Positions 8,583 through 53,723 of a DNA stretch of 64,000 bases are shown piece after piece; positions within the stretch are counted from its first letter, which is position 1, and each line of letters opens with the position of its first letter. Under the pieces are notes generated by a model. The model saw only the letters and a list, made by a program, of their open reading frames with translations, searched no databases and was not told the DNA's origin. Position numbers and translations under genes: made by a program. This DNA is from Escherichia coli (GTDB lineage Bacteria; Pseudomonadota; Gammaproteobacteria; Enterobacterales; Enterobacteriaceae), in NCBI RefSeq assembly GCF_030384885.1, contig NZ_CP128613.1; one strand, written 5' to 3'.

Positions 8583-9488
8583 ATGGTACAAAGTATCAAT
8601 CTTCTTCGAACCAGTGATACTCCTATGGCTTATAGCATCGATATCATCTCCTGCATTACCGAACGATTTATGGCGTTAACAGCCACTGAAAAGCGTATCG
8701 CACAATTTATTCTTGATGATGTCCCCGCCGCGGTGGAACTGCCAATTGCTGAGCTGGCACGGTTAACGCAAACCAGTCAGGCGTCGGTGACGCGTTTTGC
8801 CCGTGCTCTGGGGTGTAAAGATGTCCGCGAGCTGAAAGTCAAACTGGCGCAGTCACTGGCTATCGGGCAGCGGTTTATTCTCGATGTACCGGATCTTGAC
8901 GGTGTTCAGGGGATCTACGAAGCGATTATTAGCGTGCTGGAAACGCATCGTCGTTCGCTGGATATGAATGCCATCAGCCAGGCGGTAAGCTGGTTAAGTC
9001 AGGCGCGGCAAATTCTTGCATTGGGAACTGGCGGCGGTTCCACCATCTGTTCACAGGAGATTCAGTACCGTTTATTCCGTCTGGGGCTACCTGTGGTTAG
9101 TCAGAATGATGCCCTGATGATGAGAATGATGTGCTCGGCAGTGATGCCGCAGGATGTGGTGATTGTGCTGTCGCTGGGCGGTTATACACCGGAAATCATC
9201 GAAAGTGCGGCAATCGCCCGTCAGTATGGCGCGCGTGTTATTGCCATTACGCCAGCACAAACACCGCTGGCGGAACAGGTGGATCTGGTATTGCCGTTAC
9301 TGGTTCAGGAAAGTGATTACATCTTTAAGCCCACCCCTTCCCGCTACGCGGTGTTAGCCATGGTCGATGTACTGGCAACAGAACTGGCAATGGCAAATAA
9401 AGCGCAGGCGAAAGATCGCCTGCGGCGGATAAAACTGGTGTTAGACAGCCACCGTGGGGGCGCTAACCGCCAGCCACTTGGCGATTAG
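8583..9488 (+). CDS. RpiR/MurR-family transcriptional regulator (HTH_6 plus SIS sugar-phosphate-binding domain)
   Basis: 301-aa ORF; N-terminal region typical of RpiR-type HTH (TATEKRIAQFILDD...) and C-terminal SIS-like region; start uncertain (ATG at 8583 or 8625); not part of the K-12 tsr-btsT junction as I recall it. Confidence 0.75.
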   Translation: MVQSINLLRTSDTPMAYSIDIISCITERFMALTATEKRIAQFILDDVPAAVELPIAELARLTQTSQASVTRFARALGCKDVRELKVKLAQSLAIGQRFILDVPDLDGVQGIYEAIISVLETHRRSLDMNAISQAVSWLSQARQILALGTGGGSTICSQEIQYRLFRLGLPVVSQNDALMMRMMCSAVMPQDVVIVLSLGGYTPEIIESAAIARQYGARVIAITPAQTPLAEQVDLVLPLLVQESDYIFKPTPSRYAVLAMVDVLATELAMANKAQAKDRLRRIKLVLDSHRGGANRQPLGD

Positions 9489-26374: not shown

Positions 26375-26535
26375 CAGCGTTTACTCCCGGTTAACCACCG
26401 GGAGCCTTCCACTGACTCAATAGAAACTTTCCCCCTCAGTAAATATTTACCAGTCTGATTTTGCAGTAAAAATCTATTGTTTCAGTACGTTGCGAAAGCG
26501 ATAATAGAGGCTTAGCAATGAGGAAGGCATATCTT

Positions 26536-27915
26536 ATGGAATCTATTCAACCCTGGATTGAAAAATTTATTAAGCAAGCACAGCAACAACGTTCGCAATC
26601 CACTAAAGATTATCCAACGTCTTACCGTAACCTGCGAGTAAAATTGAGTTTCGGTTATGGTAATTTTACGTCTATTCCCTGGTTTGCATTTCTTGGAGAA
26701 GGTCAGGAAGCTTCTAACGGTATATATCCCGTTATTCTCTATTATAAAGATTTTGATGAGTTGGTTTTGGCTTATGGTATAAGCGACACGAATGAACCAC
26801 ATGCCCAATGGCAGTTCTCTTCAGACATACCTAAAACAATCGCAGAGTATTTCCAGGCAACTTCAGGTGTATATCCTAAAAAATACGGACAGTCCTATTA
26901 CGCCTGTTCCCAAAAAGTCTCACAGGGTCTTGATTATACCCGGTTTGCCTCCATGCTGGACAACATAATCAACGACTATAAATTAATATTTAATTCTGGC
27001 AAGAGTGTTATTCCACCTATGTCAAAAACTGAATCATACTGTCTGGAAGATGCGTTAAATGATTTGTTTATCCCTGAAACCACGATAGAGACGATACTCA
27101 AACGATTAACCATCAAAAAAAATATTATCCTCCAGGGGCCGCCCGGCGTTGGAAAAACCTTTGTTGCACGCCGTCTGGCTTACTTGCTGACAGGGGAAAA
27201 GGCTCCGCAACGCGTCAATATGGTTCAGTTCCATCAATCTTATAGCTATGAGGATTTTATACAGGGCTATCGTCCGAATGGTGTCGGCTTCCGACGTAAA
27301 GACGGTATATTTTACAATTTTTGTCAGCAAGCTAAAGAGCAGCCAGAGAAAAAGTATGTTTTTATTATAGATGAAATCAATCGTGCCAATCTCAGTAAAG
27401 TATTTGGCGAAGTGATGATGTTAATGGAACATGATAAACGAGGTGAAAACTGGTCTGTTCCCTTAACCTACTCCGAAAACGATGAAGAACGATTCTATGT
27501 TCCGGAGAATGTTTATATTATCGGTTTAATGAATACTGCCGATCGCTCTCTGGCCGTTGTTGATTATGCCCTGCGCAGACGATTTTCTTTCATAGATATT
27601 GAGCCAGGTTTTGATACGCCACAGTTCCGGAATTTTTTACTGAATAAAAAAGCAGAACCTTCATTTGTTGAATCTTTATGCCAAACAATGAACGAGTTAA
27701 ACCAGGAAATCAGCAAAGAGGCCACTATCCTTGGGAAAGGATTCCGCATTGGGCATAGTTACTTCTGCTCCGGGTTGGAAGATGGCACATCTCCTGATAC
27801 GCAATGGCTTAAGGAAATTGTGATGACGGATATCGCCCCTTTACTCGAAGAATATTTCTTTGATGATCCCTATAAACAACAGATATGGACCGACAAATTA
27901 TTAGGTGACTCATAG
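26536..27915 (+). CDS. mcrB: McrB, GTPase (AAA+) subunit of the 5-methylcytosine-dependent restriction enzyme McrBC
   Basis: 459 aa from ATG with AGGAAGG upstream (MESIQPWIEKF...); P-loop GPPGVGKT; AT-rich composition. Confidence 0.93.
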   Translation: MESIQPWIEKFIKQAQQQRSQSTKDYPTSYRNLRVKLSFGYGNFTSIPWFAFLGEGQEASNGIYPVILYYKDFDELVLAYGISDTNEPHAQWQFSSDIPKTIAEYFQATSGVYPKKYGQSYYACSQKVSQGLDYTRFASMLDNIINDYKLIFNSGKSVIPPMSKTESYCLEDALNDLFIPETTIETILKRLTIKKNIILQGPPGVGKTFVARRLAYLLTGEKAPQRVNMVQFHQSYSYEDFIQGYRPNGVGFRRKDGIFYNFCQQAKEQPEKKYVFIIDEINRANLSKVFGEVMMLMEHDKRGENWSVPLTYSENDEERFYVPENVYIIGLMNTADRSLAVVDYALRRRFSFIDIEPGFDTPQFRNFLLNKKAEPSFVESLCQTMNELNQEISKEATILGKGFRIGHSYFCSGLEDGTSPDTQWLKEIVMTDIAPLLEEYFFDDPYKQQIWTDKLLGDS

Positions 27916-28961
27916 TGGAACAGCCCGTGATACCTGTCCGTAATATCTATTACATGCTTACCTATGCATGGGGTTATTTACAGGAAATTAAGCAGGCCGA
28001 CCTTGAAGCCATTCCCGGTAACAATCTTCTTGATATCCTGGGGTATGTATTAAATAAAGGGGTTTTACAGCTTTCACGCCGAGGGCTTGAGCTTGATTAC
28101 AATCCTAATACAGAAATCATTCCTGGCATCAAAGGGCGAATAGAGTTTGCTAAAACAATACGCGGCTTCCATCTTAATCATGGGAAAACCGTCAGTACGT
28201 TTGATATGCTTAATGAAGACACGCTGGCTAACCGAATTATAAAAAGCACATTAGCCATGTTAATTAAGCATGAAAAGTTAAACTCAGCCATCAGAGATGA
28301 AGCTCGTTCACTTTATAGAAAATTACCGGGCATTAGCACTCTTCATTTAACTCCACAGCATTTCAGCTATCTGAATGGCGGAAAAAATACGCGTTATTAT
28401 AAATTCGTTATAAGTGTCTGCAAGTTCATCGTCAATAATTCTATTCCAGGTCAAAACAAAGGACACTACCGTTTCTATGATTTTGAAAGAAACGAAAAAG
28501 AGATGTCATTACTTTATCAAAAGTTTCTTTATGAATTTTGCCGCCGTGAATTAACGTCTGCAAACACAACCCGCTCTTATTTAAAATGGGATGCATCGAG
28601 CATATCGGATCAGTCACTTAATTTGTTACCTCGAATGGAAACTGACATCACCATTCGCTCATCAGAAAAAATACTTATCGTTGACGCCAAATACTATAAG
28701 AGCATTTTTTCACGACGAATGGGCTCAGAAAAATTTCATTCTCAAAATCTTTATCAACTGATGAATTACTTATGGTCGTTAAAGCCTGAAAATGGCGAAA
28801 ACATAGGGGGCTTATTAATATACCCCCACGTAGATACCGCAGTGAAACATCGTTATAAAATTAATGGCTTCGATATTGGCTTGTGTACCGTCAATTTAGG
28901 TCAGGAATGGCCGTGTATACATCAAGAATTACTCGACATTTTCGGTGAATATCTCAAATAA
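27915..28961 (+). CDS. mcrC: McrC, nuclease subunit of McrBC
   Basis: 348-aa ORF with GTG start overlapping the mcrB stop (MEQPVIPVRNIYYMLTY...); recognised as McrC. Confidence 0.93.
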   Translation: MEQPVIPVRNIYYMLTYAWGYLQEIKQADLEAIPGNNLLDILGYVLNKGVLQLSRRGLELDYNPNTEIIPGIKGRIEFAKTIRGFHLNHGKTVSTFDMLNEDTLANRIIKSTLAMLIKHEKLNSAIRDEARSLYRKLPGISTLHLTPQHFSYLNGGKNTRYYKFVISVCKFIVNNSIPGQNKGHYRFYDFERNEKEMSLLYQKFLYEFCRRELTSANTTRSYLKWDASSISDQSLNLLPRMETDITIRSSEKILIVDAKYYKSIFSRRMGSEKFHSQNLYQLMNYLWSLKPENGENIGGLLIYPHVDTAVKHRYKINGFDIGLCTVNLGQEWPCIHQELLDIFGEYLK

Positions 28962-29017: not shown

Positions 29018-29353
29018 TCAGGAGGCGATCACCTCCACCAGCACATCCGTTGCCCAGCTCTCTTCACTGTTGACCACATTCCCTTCCTGACAAGCTTGAT
29101 CCATTTTGACTAACTGGAAAGAAACGTCATCGCGGAAATCAAAGTAATGCCATTGCGATGAAAAGTTGATGCGCCAGTAGCCCATCCCCTGATCGAAGCG
29201 GATCTTCAATACCTGACCATCCTCAAAAGTCACCGTCAGTTTACGATGGTGAGGGATATCGCGCGGCGAGTCGAACACCGTCAGTTCTACCGGCCTGCCC
29301 AGCGCAGCAGCAAACCACTGATCAGCGAAATCCTGAAAATCCGCTATGCTCAT
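29018..29353 (-). CDS. Hypothetical protein (111 aa), translationally coupled to the upstream 277-aa ORF
   Basis: ORF-track frame; its ATG overlaps the stop of the upstream ORF (ATGA); no family recognised by eye; may be a remnant of the yjiT/yjiV-type gene found at this position in K-12. Confidence 0.5.
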
Positions 29354-30183
29354 CCAGTCATGGAAAGGCCGGTTAGCAGTCCATTCAAAAAATGCGTTCC
29401 TGTTTCATCATCTAACGGTATTGGAAACTCGCTTCGCCAGGTAGGGTGAACCTTATCAAGCTGTTGTACTGGTTCTTTGTGATTTATTAGGTTGTGAGTA
29501 AGTACTAAGGAATTGAGGTTATCAGCCATATGACTGATAAGTTCTACAGAGGTATCTTCGCTAAAAACAGTAGGCAGCGCTGATTTTTCTATGACAGCTC
29601 TTGCCAGCGAAAGGGCTGAAAAACCTGACTGCTTTGCTTGCTCATATTGTCCAAGGATCCTGGAGAAAACAGCCAGAAAGCGACTGTCTGATTCTTTGAG
29701 TAGCCGGAAAGGTAAACCACCTTCACTGAATAATGTTCCGAGAAAATTGCGTCGTTCAGATTCATAAAATCGAATTGGGCGCAGCCAGTAATCTTCCATC
29801 CCTTTCGGTACGATAGTACCAAGCTCTGTGGCGGTGAATGAAATCCCTATTTTTTTATATATAGGGTCCCACGTCCATCCGCATTGCCGTTCATAATCCC
29901 TGCGGTACCACTCAGAGCAAAAAAGAACAAAACAGGCAGCAAAGTCCCTATTACATATATTAGATTGTGATTGACCGACTGCACGGAGTAGCTGCGTTAA
30001 TTGGGTATATTCATCATTGGTTGCATGATATTCATAAAGAGGACGGCCATCCGGTTGTCTCAACCCTCTAAGATTCACAAAGTTACTTAGCCAGGAAGTA
30101 CATTTTACCCATGAAATGTATTCTGATTGACCCAAAGCAAGCTCCTTAGAGATAAAAGATACAAAAACAAAACCCCACAACAT
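29350..30183 (-). CDS. Hypothetical protein (277 aa) in the mcrC-yjiS variable slot
   Basis: ORF-track frame; AT-rich relative to flanking core genes; no obvious Shine-Dalgarno; no family recognised by eye. Confidence 0.5.
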
Positions 30184-30633
30184 TTCTAATTTGAAAGAAA
30201 ACCTTTCAGAATATTGTATAGTTACTCAGGCGGCAACAACTATTTTTTCAGGTCGATACTATAAATCAATTTTAGATAAAAATGATATCAACCATCTATT
30301 AATCACAACTCATTTATCACCTGATTTTATAATTTCAAATGAAAATAAATCTCAAACAATCAAAAAGTATTCAGTAGCTGACATTTAACTTTCCAGGATA
30401 TAAAACAATTAGAGAAACTGCACAATAGCGAATAATGAGAGTTGTAAAGTCAGTCAAAAAACACAAGTAATCACTGTGCGTTTTTTGACCGTTATCGACA
30501 TGAGTTTAAAGAGGTTAGTGAAGAAGATATTCCTGTACACTCCATACCTATTGATGAATTGTCTCGGGAAAATTTTTATAACTTAATATAAAAACATAAA
30601 AACGTTTTATTATATATAAATCTATATCCCCCC

Positions 30634-30798
30634 TCACTCCACATCCTCCCTGCGTAACCCGATATCCCTCAACCGCTCATCACTCATCTGCTGTAACACG
30701 CGTCGGGTCTGCATTTGCCGCCGCCAACGCCTCACCGCCTGCCAGAGTTGCACAAGGCCGATAAACGGCGCTTTAGCTCTGTTTTCGTGAAATTCCAT
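30634..30798 (-). CDS. yjiS: YjiS (DUF1127) small protein
   Basis: 54 aa read from the minus strand (MEFHENRAKAPFIGLVQLWQAVRRWRRQMQTRRVLQQMSDERLRDIGLRREDVE); not in the supplied ORF track because it is under 60 aa. Confidence 0.8.
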   Translation of the reverse strand: MEFHENRAKAPFIGLVQLWQAVRRWRRQMQTRRVLQQMSDERLRDIGLRREDVE

Positions 30799-52228: not shown

Positions 52229-52901
52229 TTTGCGCACTCCTGACGTTTAGCAACATATGTGGCTTGCCCTGAATACCGGGCACCACTGTATTGATGCTCA
52301 TTTTCCATAGCCATTCCCTTTTGTTCATTACATCCATGTCAGTCTGAGACAGGCCTGAATCCTGTCAGCAAAGTATAAAACCTTACTTGCCTATGAATAT
52401 CTACTGACTTTTCAGGAAAAAAGTCATGATTTGATAAAAATCATCAAACTCAAAAAAAAACTGCTAGTATATTCTGAATATTCCGAATAGTTACGTAGAT
52501 GAAAATACTTGTCACCGCCGCTACTTAATCCCGGCGGGAGATTATTTATTTTCGTATAATCAACCATGTATTATTTGAAACAATTAGTTTGTAAATAATA
52601 TAAATTGATAACATATCAAATACATCAAAAACACCATTCACAGGCATTATTAATATAGACATCAATATAACAACATCAAATTCCAATTAGTAATAAGATA
52701 TGCTTTTAAATTGCATGCAAATAATTTTAAATGAGCGTTTTTTGATACTTTAGAGTGTTTCCCACCCTTTAATATCACTGTGTAGAGTTGATATCACTAC
52801 AACAGAAACATGCATGTCATTTGTTTACTTCTCTTTTTACTACAGAAAAATTTATCTATTTTTCTAAAACATCAGTGAAATACTCATAAAAGGTTATTAA
52901 T

Positions 52902-53723
52902 ATGTCTATGCCAATAAGCAATGCCGCTAACAACAAAATTTTTACAGATAATCATTTCGCTCATCATCCAAATGCCGATAAAGAATTAGCAGACAGTATG
53001 CCCTCGCATCTTAACTCGGAAAACATCTATGTCAGACCTCTTGTTCGTGGAAATAACCATAACTATGATGGGGGAAGTGTTGTCGAAATTAGACAGCTTG
53101 AAATTGGTAAACAAGGGTATTGGCCATTCAATTACGTAACAGCCGCATGTAAAGAATCCGATGGTATTTCAATCACAGGAAACATACGCTGTGGTACCTG
53201 GAAGGCCAGCTCAGTATTAGACGGAATATACGGTGGAGTATGTAAAAAGGCGCATGTTTCCGCAGCGTTAGAAGCTGGTCTACGGTTTAACCTAACTATG
53301 GATTCTAAAATTCCAAACACGATACATGAAATAACCCTAGGCCCTGGTTGCAATGTTCCAGGCTATGCGGGAACCACGATAGGATACCTGGCAACACTCC
53401 CCCTTGAAAAGGTTGAAAATTGGCAAGATACAACACTGCCAAGAATTGATATCTATATTGATCAGATAATGACTGTGTCAGGGGTAGCAAATTCTTCCGG
53501 ATTCGCCCTTGCTGCATTACTTAATGCTAATATTGGAATGGGAAATGACCCAATAATTGGTATAGAAGCCTATCCTGGTACCGCTGAGATCCACGCTAAG
53601 ATTGGATATAAAGTTATCCCCGGGGATGAAAATGCACATGTCAAACGTATGACTCTGCAACCGTCATCTCTCCCAGAACTGTTTGAATTAAAAAATGGTG
53701 AATGGAATTATATTGGTAAATAA
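52902..53723 (+). CDS. yjiC: YjiC, uncharacterised protein
   Basis: 273-aa ORF after a roughly 670-bp AT-rich intergenic region; AT-rich codon usage; recognised as YjiC by position and sequence. Confidence 0.8.
   Translation: MSMPISNAANNKIFTDNHFAHHPNADKELADSMPSHLNSENIYVRPLVRGNNHNYDGGSVVEIRQLEIGKQGYWPFNYVTAACKESDGISITGNIRCGTWKASSVLDGIYGGVCKKAHVSAALEAGLRFNLTMDSKIPNTIHEITLGPGCNVPGYAGTTIGYLATLPLEKVENWQDTTLPRIDIYIDQIMTVSGVANSSGFALAALLNANIGMGNDPIIGIEAYPGTAEIHAKIGYKVIPGDENAHVKRMTLQPSSLPELFELKNGEWNYIGK

What the first reader, a model, noticed from the sequence alone, without database searches (positions are those of the whole stretch)
30184..30633. 450-bp AT-rich non-coding tract between the hypothetical ORF pair and yjiS
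The tract is very AT-rich, contains runs such as TTTTATTATATATAAATCTATAT, and has only a 65-aa ORF with no ribosome-binding site. It may be the promoter/leader of the minus-strand ORF pair, an H-NS-bound silencing region, or the scar of a deleted element.
Basis: seen in the sequence. Interest (0 to 1): 0.25.

Follow-up and report, generated by a model that had tools for sequence, protein, structure and literature searches.

The report
Promoter region of a broken Druantia operon
The AT-rich gap is the ordinary non-coding control region (promoter, leader and ribosome-binding site) of the E. coli yjiT/druH phage-defence operon, which in this strain has lost most of its coding sequence, so the tract is real but not surprising.

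Summary
The gene-free gap is really 498 bp (30136-30633), because yjiT starts at TTG 30135 behind AAGGAG. Its GC content is 0.29, in the lowest 0.4% of this window.

- **Neighbouring ORF pair:** these are remnants of Druantia type III, DruH (YjiT, first 254 codons) and the C-terminus of DruE. An 8.5-kb deletion joins them at 29374/29375, so the deletion scar lies there and not in the tract.
- **Origin of the tract:** it is the last segment of the variable immigration-control-region cassette. It occurs in 631 of 5426 complete E. coli genomes, and homology with all other strains breaks exactly at the yjiS stop codon.
- **Coding potential:** none is conserved. The 65-aa ORF is broken in 4 of the 8 other E. 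coli alleles compared and in E. whittamii.
- **Conserved promoter:** alignment of druH upstream regions from 12 enterobacterial lineages shows a sigma-70 promoter at -35 TTGCCG (30236-30231), a 17-bp spacer and -10 TATTCT (30213-30208). The key bases are invariant while the spacer drifts. An A-rich flank lies upstream. The inferred 5' UTR is about 67 nt.
- **Published K-12 data:** RpoD holoenzyme and H-NS both bind this spacer in vitro. A Term-seq 3' end falls inside the -35 hexamer and remains unexplained.
- **Hairpin:** a stable A6/U6 hairpin (30491-30451) may end yjiS transcripts.

This is an ordinary regulatory region of low novelty.

The parts
30136..30633 (-). Whole non-coding tract between the yjiS stop and the yjiT/druH start. 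It is the terminal segment of the variable ICR cassette that carries druHE.
   Evidence: GC 0.293. Unannotated in NC_000913.3 and in nearly all RefSeq genomes. Present in 631/5426 genomes, single copy and chromosomal. Homology of the other strains breaks at 30629-30634.
30231..30236 (-). -35 hexamer TTGCCG of the conserved druHE promoter
   Evidence: T, T invariant 12/12 and G 11/12 in the 12-lineage alignment. No variable position among 9 E. coli alleles.
30208..30213 (-). -10 hexamer TATTCT, 17 bp after the -35
   Evidence: T1, A2 and T6 invariant 12/12, while positions 3-4 vary freely and position 5 is C in 10 of 12. It is the best PWM site of the whole tract. E. coli alleles vary only at positions 3 and 5.
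30239..30248 (-). A-rich flank AAAAAATAGT just upstream of the -35, either UP-element-like or the site of an unknown factor
   Evidence: Column majorities 0.67-1.0, with A30247 and G30240 invariant. The resemblance to the proximal UP subsite AAAAAARNR rests on my own knowledge.
30200..30203 (-). Predicted transcription start (inferred, not mapped), equivalent to K-12 NC_000913.3 about 4572346-4572349
   Evidence: Lies 5-8 nt after the -10. G30202 is 92% conserved. Coordinate mapping.
30136..30202 (-). Inferred 5' UTR of druH (about 67 nt), including the Shine-Dalgarno AAGGAG at 30142-30147. The start codon TTG is at 30133-30135.
   Evidence: Last 30 nt have column majorities 0.78-0.90. The SD and TTG/GTG start are conserved in 18 loci. 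The UTR is predicted to be unstructured (z +1.96).
30451..30491 (-). 18-bp hairpin with A6 and U6 arms (GGTCAAAAAACGCAC...GTGTTTTTTGACT). It is a candidate bidirectional terminator or yjiS 3' end, or a protein-binding palindrome.
   Evidence: dG -20.1 kcal/mol, z -5.16, 0/200 shuffles as stable. Kept in all E. coli alleles folded (L002, L007, L010-L012) and in E. whittamii. Against: the core stem alone is only -4.2 kcal/mol, the consensus terminator scan found nothing, and no Term-seq 3' end is listed there.
30385..30450 (-). Best-conserved block between E. coli and E. whittamii; function unknown
   Evidence: 3 mismatches in 66 nt against 14.4% at four-fold sites, P=0.01 before correcting for several blocks tested. 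Partly alignable in C. amalonaticus, Enterobacter, Pantoea and the P0003 locus.
30326..30355 (-). Promoter predicted by Shimada et al. 2014 (TTGAGA-18-TATAAA)
   Evidence: PMC3946193, located by me and scored 4.7. The -35 is not conserved even in E. whittamii, and the -10 lacks the final T.
30235..30235 (-). Published Term-seq RNA 3' end (K-12 4572314 +), inside the -35 hexamer; unexplained
   Evidence: bioRxiv 10.1101/2020.07.18.207399, supplementary files 1 and 3. Mapping checked.
30191..30388 (+). 65-aa ORF, judged not to be a gene
   Evidence: Broken in L007, L009, L010, L011 and E. whittamii. It carries 12 amino-acid changes in L012 and has no SD. PGAP annotated it as a hypothetical protein in a few genomes only.
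30634..30798 (-). yjiS (DUF1127), the conserved framework gene bordering the ICR
   Evidence: Framework role per PMC4498929.
29374..30135 (-). First 254 codons of yjiT = druH (Druantia III), truncated by the deletion
   Evidence: PADLOC DruH3 E=7e-139. Homology to intact yjiT starts at 29374.
29018..29373 (-). C-terminal remnant of druE (the 111-aa ORF is 29018-29353)
   Evidence: PADLOC DruE3 E=1e-21, profile positions 1955-2053 of 2055. 100% identical to the end of the DEAD/DEAH helicase gene of strain 2013C-4282.

Best explanation
The tract is the cis-regulatory and leader region of the Druantia type III operon druH-druE (yjiT-yjiV). It forms the outermost 0.5 kb of the mobile cassette that sits at the yjiS edge of the E. 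coli immigration control region. Transcription of druHE most likely starts near 30202 on the minus strand. The promoter is a moderately strong sigma-70 promoter: an A-rich flank at 30248-30239, -35 TTGCCG at 30236-30231, a 17-bp spacer and -10 TATTCT at 30213-30208. An unstructured leader of about 67 nt follows, ending in AAGGAG and a conserved weak TTG start codon. The surrounding 71% A+T DNA is bound by H-NS, which probably keeps expression low. The yjiS-proximal third carries a stable A6-stem-U6 hairpin that may stop yjiS transcripts, and antisense transcripts, before they reach the promoter. In this strain the promoter now drives only a 254-codon DruH stump, because 8.5 kb of druH-druE have been deleted, so the region is a functional-looking control region in front of a dead operon. 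What is shown: composition, borders, cassette membership, lack of conserved coding, conservation of the promoter and RBS, and the hairpin. What comes from published K-12 data: RpoD and H-NS binding in vitro. What is inferred: the exact start site, silencing in vivo and the terminator function.
For: Identity of the neighbours: PADLOC DruH3 and DruE3 and RefSeq annotation of intact loci. Cassette membership: the tract occurs in 631/5426 genomes, the yjiS flank in 3783, and the break is at 30629-30634; elsewhere symE or other restriction genes abut yjiS. No plasmid or phage copies exist. Non-coding nature: 11.2% variable columns against 3.0% in the yjiT coding sequence. E. coli and E. whittamii differ at 19% of tract positions against 14.4% at four-fold sites. 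The ORFs are not conserved, and there is no Rfam match near any gathering score. Promoter: in 12 lineages with DruH 71-95% identical and four-fold sites 31-51% identical outside Escherichia, TT(G) and TA...T are invariant with a fixed 17-18 bp spacing, while spacer columns sit at 0.42-0.67 majority for all but two columns. The aligned site is the top-scoring sigma-70 PWM hit of the 340-nt upstream region in 8 of 12 lineages and second in 3. It is also the best hit in the window tract. RBS and TTG conservation. Literature: an RpoD-holoenzyme SELEX peak and an H-NS site in the yjiS>yjiT spacer (PMC3946193) and an RpoS-holoenzyme peak about 200 bp into yjiT (PMC5493296). Druantia workers clone the operon with its 'native putative promoter'. 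Hairpin.
Against: I could not obtain a mapped transcription start. Kim et al. 2012 and the SMRT-Cappable-seq supplements held here list nothing at this locus, and the Cappable-seq file is truncated. The tool's strict consensus scan found no promoter or terminator, because it requires at least 9 of 12 matches and this site has 8. Shimada et al. predicted a different promoter in the same SELEX peak. A Term-seq 3' end lies inside the proposed -35, which shows that some transcription comes from further upstream. The promoter is not recognisable in the more distant DruH clade (60-66% identity: Raoultella, Proteus, S. Typhi). The H-NS evidence is in vitro only, and the high-affinity H-NS motif is not enriched in the tract. 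MAFFT alignment of AT-rich DNA can inflate apparent conservation.
Confidence: 0.75

Rival explanations
1. The operon is transcribed mainly from a promoter further upstream in the tract. Candidates are the Shimada-predicted TTGAGA-18-TATAAA (30355-30326), TTGACT-17-TATTCG (30457-30429), or read-through from yjiS. In that case the leader is 180-500 nt long and the conserved TTG-17-TAnnnT is secondary or serves another role.
For: Shimada et al. assigned TTGAGA-18-TATAAA to the SELEX peak. A Term-seq 3' end at 30235 proves that RNA in the druH direction exists upstream of the proposed start. DirectRNA-seq coverage is similar upstream and downstream of that point. TTGACT at 30457 is conserved in 6 of 12 lineages. 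No strong terminator follows yjiS.
Against: The TTGAGA -35 is not conserved in E. whittamii, and its -10 lacks the near-invariant final T. The TATTCG -10 also lacks it in Escherichia and C. amalonaticus. Both sites score 4.7-6.3 against 10.8-11.1 for the conserved site. The hairpin at 30491-30451 lies between yjiS and these sites.
Confidence: 0.15
2. The tract encodes an independent small transcript (a small RNA or cis-acting leader RNA) that ends at 30235 and regulates druHE or something else.
For: An orphan Term-seq 3' end was seen in two growth conditions. The block 30385-30450 is more conserved between E. coli and E. whittamii than four-fold sites. A 75-nt long-range hairpin (30324-30250) can form just before the 3' end.
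Against: The 3' end is of low abundance (scores 950-1313, against about 130,000-170,000 for symR in the same table). It has no terminator-like structure (intrinsic score 1.1) and no Rho dependence, and the authors class such ends as probable processing products. There is no Rfam match. Outside Escherichia, the upstream blocks are not above the four-fold-site baseline.
Confidence: 0.06
3. The tract hides a small protein gene: the 65-aa ORF at 30191-30388 (+), or the 36/28-aa ORF at 30476-30586 (+).
For: PGAP calls the 65-aa ORF a hypothetical protein in a few genomes. The 36-aa ORF is open in all 9 E. coli alleles.
Against: The 65-aa ORF is interrupted in 4 of the 8 other E. coli alleles compared and in E. 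whittamii, and carries 12 replacements in L012. The 36-aa ORF has lost its ATG and gained a stop in E. whittamii. Neither has a Shine-Dalgarno sequence. Substitutions show no sparing of any reading frame.
Confidence: 0.02
4. The tract is the scar or remnant of a deleted or degraded element and has no present function.
For: It is an AT-rich, ORF-free stretch next to pseudogenes, at an island border that is prone to rearrangement. IS1 truncates it in one strain.
Against: It is full length and collinear in strains with intact druHE. It has no similarity to IS elements, phages or plasmids and no repeats elsewhere in E. coli genomes. The conserved promoter and RBS argue for function. The real deletion junction is at 29374/29375.
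Confidence: 0.02

Closest known systems
Sigma-70 promoters with an A-rich proximal UP-like flank (textbook class, e.g. rrnB P1)
   Same: TTGnnn -35, 17-bp spacer, TAnnnT -10, and an A-run at about -47 to -39. The promoter is followed by an unstructured leader and a strong SD.
   Different: No start site has been mapped. The -10 is weak (TATTCT). The flank contains an invariant G and conserved T's, which a pure UP element would not need.
H-NS-silenced promoters of horizontally acquired AT-rich genes in Enterobacteriaceae (xenogeneic silencing, e.g. bgl, proU, pathogenicity islands)
   Same: GC is 20 points below the genome. The DNA belongs to a variable island. RpoD holoenzyme and H-NS bind the same spacer in genomic SELEX.
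   Different: No in-vivo H-NS occupancy or derepression data were seen here. The high-affinity H-NS motif is not enriched.
Druantia type III druHE operon of E. coli (OI-172 of EDL933, ATCC 8739), cloned with its 'native putative promoter'
   Same: The same two-gene operon, with DruH belonging to the YjiT family.
   Different: This copy lies in the immigration control region next to yjiS and belongs to the K-12 YjiT clade. In the window it is destroyed by an 8.5-kb deletion. The promoter architecture found here is not recognisable in the 60-66% identity clade.
Immigration control region border (framework genes yjiPRS / yjiAXY; Raleigh laboratory)
   Same: The variable/conserved junction falls at the end of yjiS, as described for the ICR (PMC4498929).
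   Different: Earlier descriptions are gene-level. Here the break is placed within 5 nt of the yjiS stop codon, and the tract is assigned to the cassette side.
Bidirectional intrinsic terminators (A-tract, hairpin, U-tract)
   Same: A6 and U6 runs flank a stem so that either strand gives a hairpin followed by U's. It lies between convergent or tandem units.
   Different: The core stem is short and GC-poor (-4.2 kcal/mol), and it fails the consensus scan. No Term-seq 3' end is listed at this place in K-12.

Membership tests
Sigma-70 promoter | -35 and -10 hexamers resembling TTGACA / TATAAT with a 16-18 bp spacer, A at -11 and T at -7 | tested here: met
   TTGCCG-17-TATTCT, 8/12 matches with A-11 and T-7 present. 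It is the best PWM hit of the tract. It falls below the tool's 9/12 threshold.
Sigma-70 promoter | Key positions conserved among relatives while the spacer drifts | tested here: met
   In 12 lineages TT is 12/12, G 11/12, and T1, A2 and T6 are 12/12. Spacer majorities are 0.42-0.67 except two columns (0.75, 0.92).
Sigma-70 promoter | RNA polymerase holoenzyme binds | tested here: inconclusive
   Literature only: an RpoD SELEX-chip peak in the yjiS>yjiT spacer, at spacer resolution, which the authors assigned to another hexamer pair (PMC3946193).
Sigma-70 promoter | A primary transcript 5' end 5-9 nt downstream of the -10 | not testable with these tools
   The held supplements of three TSS studies were either empty for this locus or truncated. 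The Thomason et al. data are not held.
H-NS-silenced xenogeneic region | A+T content well above the genome average over hundreds of bp | tested here: met
   71% A+T over 498 bp, in the lowest 0.44% of windows.
H-NS-silenced xenogeneic region | Horizontally acquired, with variable presence | tested here: met
   Present in 631/5426 genomes, with a sharp junction at the yjiS stop. Homologous upstream DNA travels with druH into other genera with different neighbours.
H-NS-silenced xenogeneic region | H-NS occupancy | tested here: inconclusive
   In-vitro SELEX only, cited from PMC3946193. The ChIP supplement is not held.
H-NS-silenced xenogeneic region | Derepression when H-NS is removed | not testable with these tools
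   No expression data could be consulted.
Druantia type III system | Full-length DruH (about 1100 aa) followed by DruE (about 2100 aa) | tested here: not met
   The window keeps only DruH residues 1-254 and about 118 residues of DruE. Intact in strain 2013C-4282.
Intrinsic terminator | GC-rich stem of at least 5 bp followed directly by a U-run, with a mapped 3' end | tested here: inconclusive
   A hairpin plus U6 is present, with z -5.2. The core stem is only -4.2 kcal/mol, the scan was negative, and no Term-seq end is listed.
Small protein gene | An ORF kept open in relatives, with an RBS | tested here: not met
Described RNA family (Rfam 15) | A match reaching the family's gathering score | tested here: not met
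   The best hit scored 20.9 bits against a gathering score of 54, and all hits are eukaryotic or archaeal snoRNA/miRNA noise.

The most novel reading that the evidence does not exclude
The tract could be a dedicated control module for Druantia III expression rather than a plain promoter. It would combine H-NS silencing, a conserved factor-binding site abutting the -35 (invariant G30240 within AAAAATTAGT), and an upstream transcript that stops inside the -35 (Term-seq end at 30235). Together these could make druHE expression respond to infection, for example through phage anti-H-NS proteins or transcriptional interference. The promoter-proximal 120 nt are also hypervariable, which might reflect selection on expression level.
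Probability: 0.08. Interest if true: 0.5.

Novelty: new member of a known kind. Interest (0 to 1): 0.15.

Why it matters
The main value is for annotation.

- It identifies the 'hypothetical ORF pair' as a deleted Druantia III operon.
- It fixes the yjiT start codon.
- It places the immigration-control-region border at the yjiS stop codon.
- It gives a concrete, testable promoter for the K-12-clade druHE operon, which current Druantia papers use only as a 'native putative promoter'.

If expression of this defence system is set by H-NS and by the conserved flank, that would bear on how costly helicase-nuclease defences are kept quiet. Nothing here requires a new mechanism.

Tried and rejected
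- **Rfam scan** at a permissive E-value: only noise.
- **Built-in promoter/terminator consensus scan:** no sites, so I wrote a PWM scan instead.
- **High-affinity H-NS motif TCGATAAATT:** a single 2-mismatch hit in the tract, so uninformative.
- **Coding hypotheses** for the 65-aa, 36-aa, 31-aa and 28-aa ORFs: rejected on conservation.
- **Repeated or mobile element:** rejected. The tract is single copy per genome and absent from phages. The one 'plasmid' hit is a mislabelled 4.9-Mb chromosome.
- **Published start sites:** the Cappable-seq file is truncated; Kim 2012 and SMRT-Cappable-seq list nothing; the Conway 2014 and Kahramanoglou 2011 supplements are not held; Thomason 2015 is not held.
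- **YiaU ChIP-exo:** yjiT is listed as a target, but the held supplements give no coordinates.
- **Sigma-32 ChIP-chip:** the Wade 2006 peak maps to about window 30402 but was not reproduced on reinvestigation, and I found no good sigma-32 motif by eye.
- **Promoter in more distant relatives:** extension to the 60-66% identity DruH clade failed. In Pseudomonas and other genera druH sits 10-130 nt behind another gene with no AT-rich tract, so the tract is a feature of the enterobacterial YjiT clade and not of Druantia III in general.
- **IHF, Lrp, SlyA or LysR-type sites** in the conserved blocks: matched by eye only, none convincing.

Full report
**1. What is in the sequence**

The window is the E. 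coli immigration control region (ICR). mcrB (26518-27915) and mcrC (27915-28961) lie on the + strand. On the minus strand come a 111-aa ORF (29018-29353), a 277-aa ORF (29350-30183), the AT-rich tract and yjiS (30634-30798). yjiR (30975-32387) follows on the + strand.

The tract as described (30184-30633) has GC 0.287 against 0.494 for the window. Only 0.44% of 498-nt windows are as AT-rich. The quoted A/T run is at 30605-30627, and the 65-aa ORF (30191-30388, +, TTG start, no Shine-Dalgarno) is there.

The left border needs correcting. RefSeq starts yjiT at the TTG at 30135, 6 nt behind AAGGAG (30147-30142). The ATG at 30183 is lost in several E. coli alleles and in E. whittamii. All 18 enterobacterial homologues examined begin at the equivalent TTG (15) or GTG (3). 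The true intergenic tract is therefore 30136-30633, 498 bp.

**2. What the neighbours are**

The 277-aa ORF matches PADLOC DruH (Druantia type III) at E=7e-139 over profile positions 3-257 of 1100. The 111-aa ORF matches the last 100 positions of DruE. In strain 2013C-4282, which is 100% identical to the window across the tract, yjiT is 3291 nt and is followed by a 6345-nt DEAD/DEAH helicase gene.

Aligning the window to that genome shows both flanks 100% identical and 8.5 kb missing (record positions 2857437-2865964). The junction is at window 29374/29375, with a 2-nt overlap. The 'hypothetical ORF pair' is therefore a deleted druH-druE operon. The 'scar of a deleted element' exists, but 760 bp to the left of the tract and not in it. 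Recent preprints identify YjiT as DruH and place it in the ICR.

**3. Where the tract belongs**

The tract occurs in 631 of 5426 complete E. coli genomes. It is always chromosomal, essentially single copy, and 94-100% identical. Many of these genomes are K-12 laboratory derivatives.

The yjiS side is found in 3783 genomes, and in those lacking the tract the homology stops at window 30629-30634, which is the yjiS stop codon. In such strains symE or other restriction genes abut yjiS directly. This agrees with the published description of yjiPRS as conserved 'framework' genes flanking a variable ICR (PMC4498929).

The tract is thus the outermost piece of the variable cassette and travels with druHE. 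No phage or true plasmid carries it. The K-12 reference annotates nothing in it (NC_000913.3 4571916-4572413).

**4. Coding or RNA gene?**

Among nine E. coli alleles, 11.2% of tract columns vary, against 3.0% in the adjoining yjiT coding sequence. Against E. whittamii the tract differs at 19% of aligned positions plus indels, while four-fold degenerate sites of druH differ at 14.4%. Overall it evolves like unconstrained DNA.

- The 65-aa ORF is interrupted in four of the eight other E. coli alleles compared and in E. whittamii.
- The 36-aa ORF (30476-30586) is open in E. coli but has lost its ATG and gained a stop in E. whittamii.
- Rfam gives only sub-threshold noise.

I conclude the tract is non-coding and holds no described RNA family.

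**5. The conserved promoter**

I collected druH loci from other species and aligned the 340 nt upstream of the start codon for twelve lineages whose DruH is 71-95% identical to the E. coli protein:

- Escherichia coli and E. whittamii
- Citrobacter amalonaticus
- Pseudenterobacter
- Serratia sp. Ag1
- Enterobacter quasihormaechei
- Cronobacter
- Pantoea
- Kalamiella
- three further loci: one unnamed NCBI assembly (P0003, GCA_017898235.1) and two metagenomic contigs (P0017, P0013)

Outside Escherichia their four-fold sites are only 31-51% identical to E. coli, so neutral DNA should be scrambled. Most of the upstream alignment indeed sits at the four-fold-site baseline. Three blocks stand out:

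- **An A-rich flank plus -35.** AAAAAATAGT is at 30248-30239 and TTGCCG at 30236-30231.
- **A -10, TATTCT, at 30213-30208.**
- **The last 30 nt before the start codon.**

Within the two hexamers, T, T (12/12), G (11/12) and T1, A2, T6 (12/12) are fixed, and the spacing stays at 17-18 bp. Most of the 17 spacer columns show majorities of only 0.42-0.67. Scored with a sigma-70 weight matrix, the aligned site is the best site of the whole upstream region in 8 of 12 lineages and second best in 3. It is also the best site in the window's tract. Among E. coli alleles the -35 is invariant and the -10 varies only at its two least important positions.

This is the classic footprint of a working sigma-70 promoter. 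It predicts a start near 30202 (K-12 about 4572347) and a leader of about 67 nt, which is predicted to be unstructured. The A-rich flank resembles a proximal UP subsite (my knowledge). However, it contains an invariant G, so a protein site cannot be excluded.

The architecture is not recognisable in the 60-66% identity DruH clade. In Pseudomonas and other genera druH follows another gene closely, with no AT-rich tract.

**6. Published experimental data for the 99.6% identical K-12 sequence**

- **RpoD and H-NS.** Genomic SELEX found an RpoD-holoenzyme site and an H-NS site in the yjiS>yjiT spacer. The authors proposed TTGAGA-18-TATAAA as the promoter (PMC3946193). I located that pair at 30355-30326. 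Its -35 is not conserved even in E. whittamii, and its -10 lacks the final T, so I regard it as the less likely site within the same low-resolution peak.
- **RpoS.** An RpoS-holoenzyme SELEX peak lies about 200 bp into yjiT (PMC5493296).
- **Sigma-32.** A ChIP-chip peak reported in 2006 maps to about 30402 but was not reproduced.
- **YiaU.** ChIP-exo lists yjiT as a target without coordinates in the held files.
- **Term-seq.** An 'orphan' RNA 3' end is listed at K-12 4572314 in two conditions. It is of low abundance, not Rho-dependent and not terminator-like. I mapped it to window 30235, the second T of the conserved -35. It shows that some druH-direction RNA arises upstream of the proposed promoter. 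I cannot explain why it ends there.
- **Transcription starts.** I could not find any mapped start.

**7. Other anatomy**

On the minus strand, 30491-30451 folds into an 18-bp hairpin with A6 and U6 arms (-20.1 kcal/mol, z = -5.2, none of 200 shuffles as stable). It is retained in all E. coli alleles folded and in E. whittamii. It lies 143 nt after the yjiS stop, and yjiS has no other terminator-like structure here.

It is a plausible bidirectional terminator that insulates the druHE promoter from yjiS and from antisense transcription. But its core stem is weak (-4.2 kcal/mol), and Term-seq lists no end there, so this remains inference.

The 66 nt after it (30450-30385) are the best-conserved part between E. 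coli and E. whittamii: 3 differences, P about 0.01 before correction. They are partly alignable in four other genera, with no function assigned.

Conversely, 30293-30176, around the promoter, is far more diverged than neutral between the two Escherichia species (34-47%). It also holds half of all variable columns among E. coli alleles. This suggests allele exchange or selection on expression, yet the key promoter bases stay fixed.

**8. Verdict**

The tract is the promoter, leader and ribosome-binding region of the ICR-borne Druantia III operon. It is embedded in H-NS-type AT-rich DNA at the very edge of the variable cassette, and in this strain it stands in front of a deleted operon. The third (scar) applies to the neighbouring ORFs instead.

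This is an ordinary kind of feature. The only new element is a specific, conserved and testable promoter assignment for a defence operon whose promoter has so far been called 'putative'. Interest is low.

Noticed in passing
window 29374-29375: An 8.5-kb deletion removes druH codons 255 onward and all but the last 118 or so codons of druE, relative to strain 2013C-4282 (NZ_CP027579.1 2857437-2865964). Both flanks are 100% identical and there is a 2-nt overlap at the junction. At most five complete genomes in the collection cover 80% or more of a query spanning this junction, and the one examined (TB06053) carries a different deletion.
   Followed up: yes
window 30133-30135 and loci L014-L073: The druH start codon is TTG in 15 and GTG in 3 of 18 enterobacterial loci, never ATG, always behind an AAGGAG-like Shine-Dalgarno sequence. 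A weak start codon seems to be maintained.
   Followed up: partly
window 30235 (minus strand): A published Term-seq RNA 3' end in K-12 (4572314 +) falls on the second base of the conserved -35 hexamer. It is not Rho-dependent and not terminator-like. A roadblock or processing event is possible.
   Followed up: partly
window 30176-30293: The promoter-proximal segment is hypervariable. It has 28 variable columns in 118 nt among 9 E. coli alleles, against 28 in the other 340 nt of the tract. Divergence from E. whittamii is 34-47%, against 14.4% at four-fold sites. The -35 TTG and -10 TA...T are nevertheless unchanged.
   Followed up: partly
L004 and L005, about 8960-9005 (junction with yjiS): In strains without mcrBC-druHE, symE converges on yjiS, and a GC-rich hairpin (CCCCTTCCCC-ACAC-GGGAAGGGG, then AATTTT) sits exactly at the conserved/variable junction. 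The window has the poly-C/AT-rich tract at that point instead.
   Followed up: no
L008 3288-4000 (strain AMSCJX03), equivalent to window about 30339: An IS1 copy truncates the tract at about window 30339. druHE, mcrBC and part of hsdS are gone in that strain.
   Followed up: no
window 30634-30798 (yjiS): yjiS shows 10.9% variable columns among 9 alleles, as many as the non-coding tract and 3.6 times the rate in yjiT. This is consistent with heavy recombination at the ICR border.
   Followed up: no
window 32629-33585: The rpnD (yjiP/yjiQ) gene is an intact 318-aa ORF here, whereas it is a pseudogene with an internal stop in K-12.
   Followed up: no
window about 39041-39830 and about 52341-53070: Two further stretches have 498-nt GC of 0.30 or less, as AT-rich as the tract studied.
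   Followed up: no
L063 4801-5166: In one NCBI assembly (GCA_017898235.1) a 121-aa gene is called between druH and a 1984-aa druE, unlike the directly adjacent druH-druE of the other loci. This may be a split or frameshifted DruE N-terminus.
   Followed up: no
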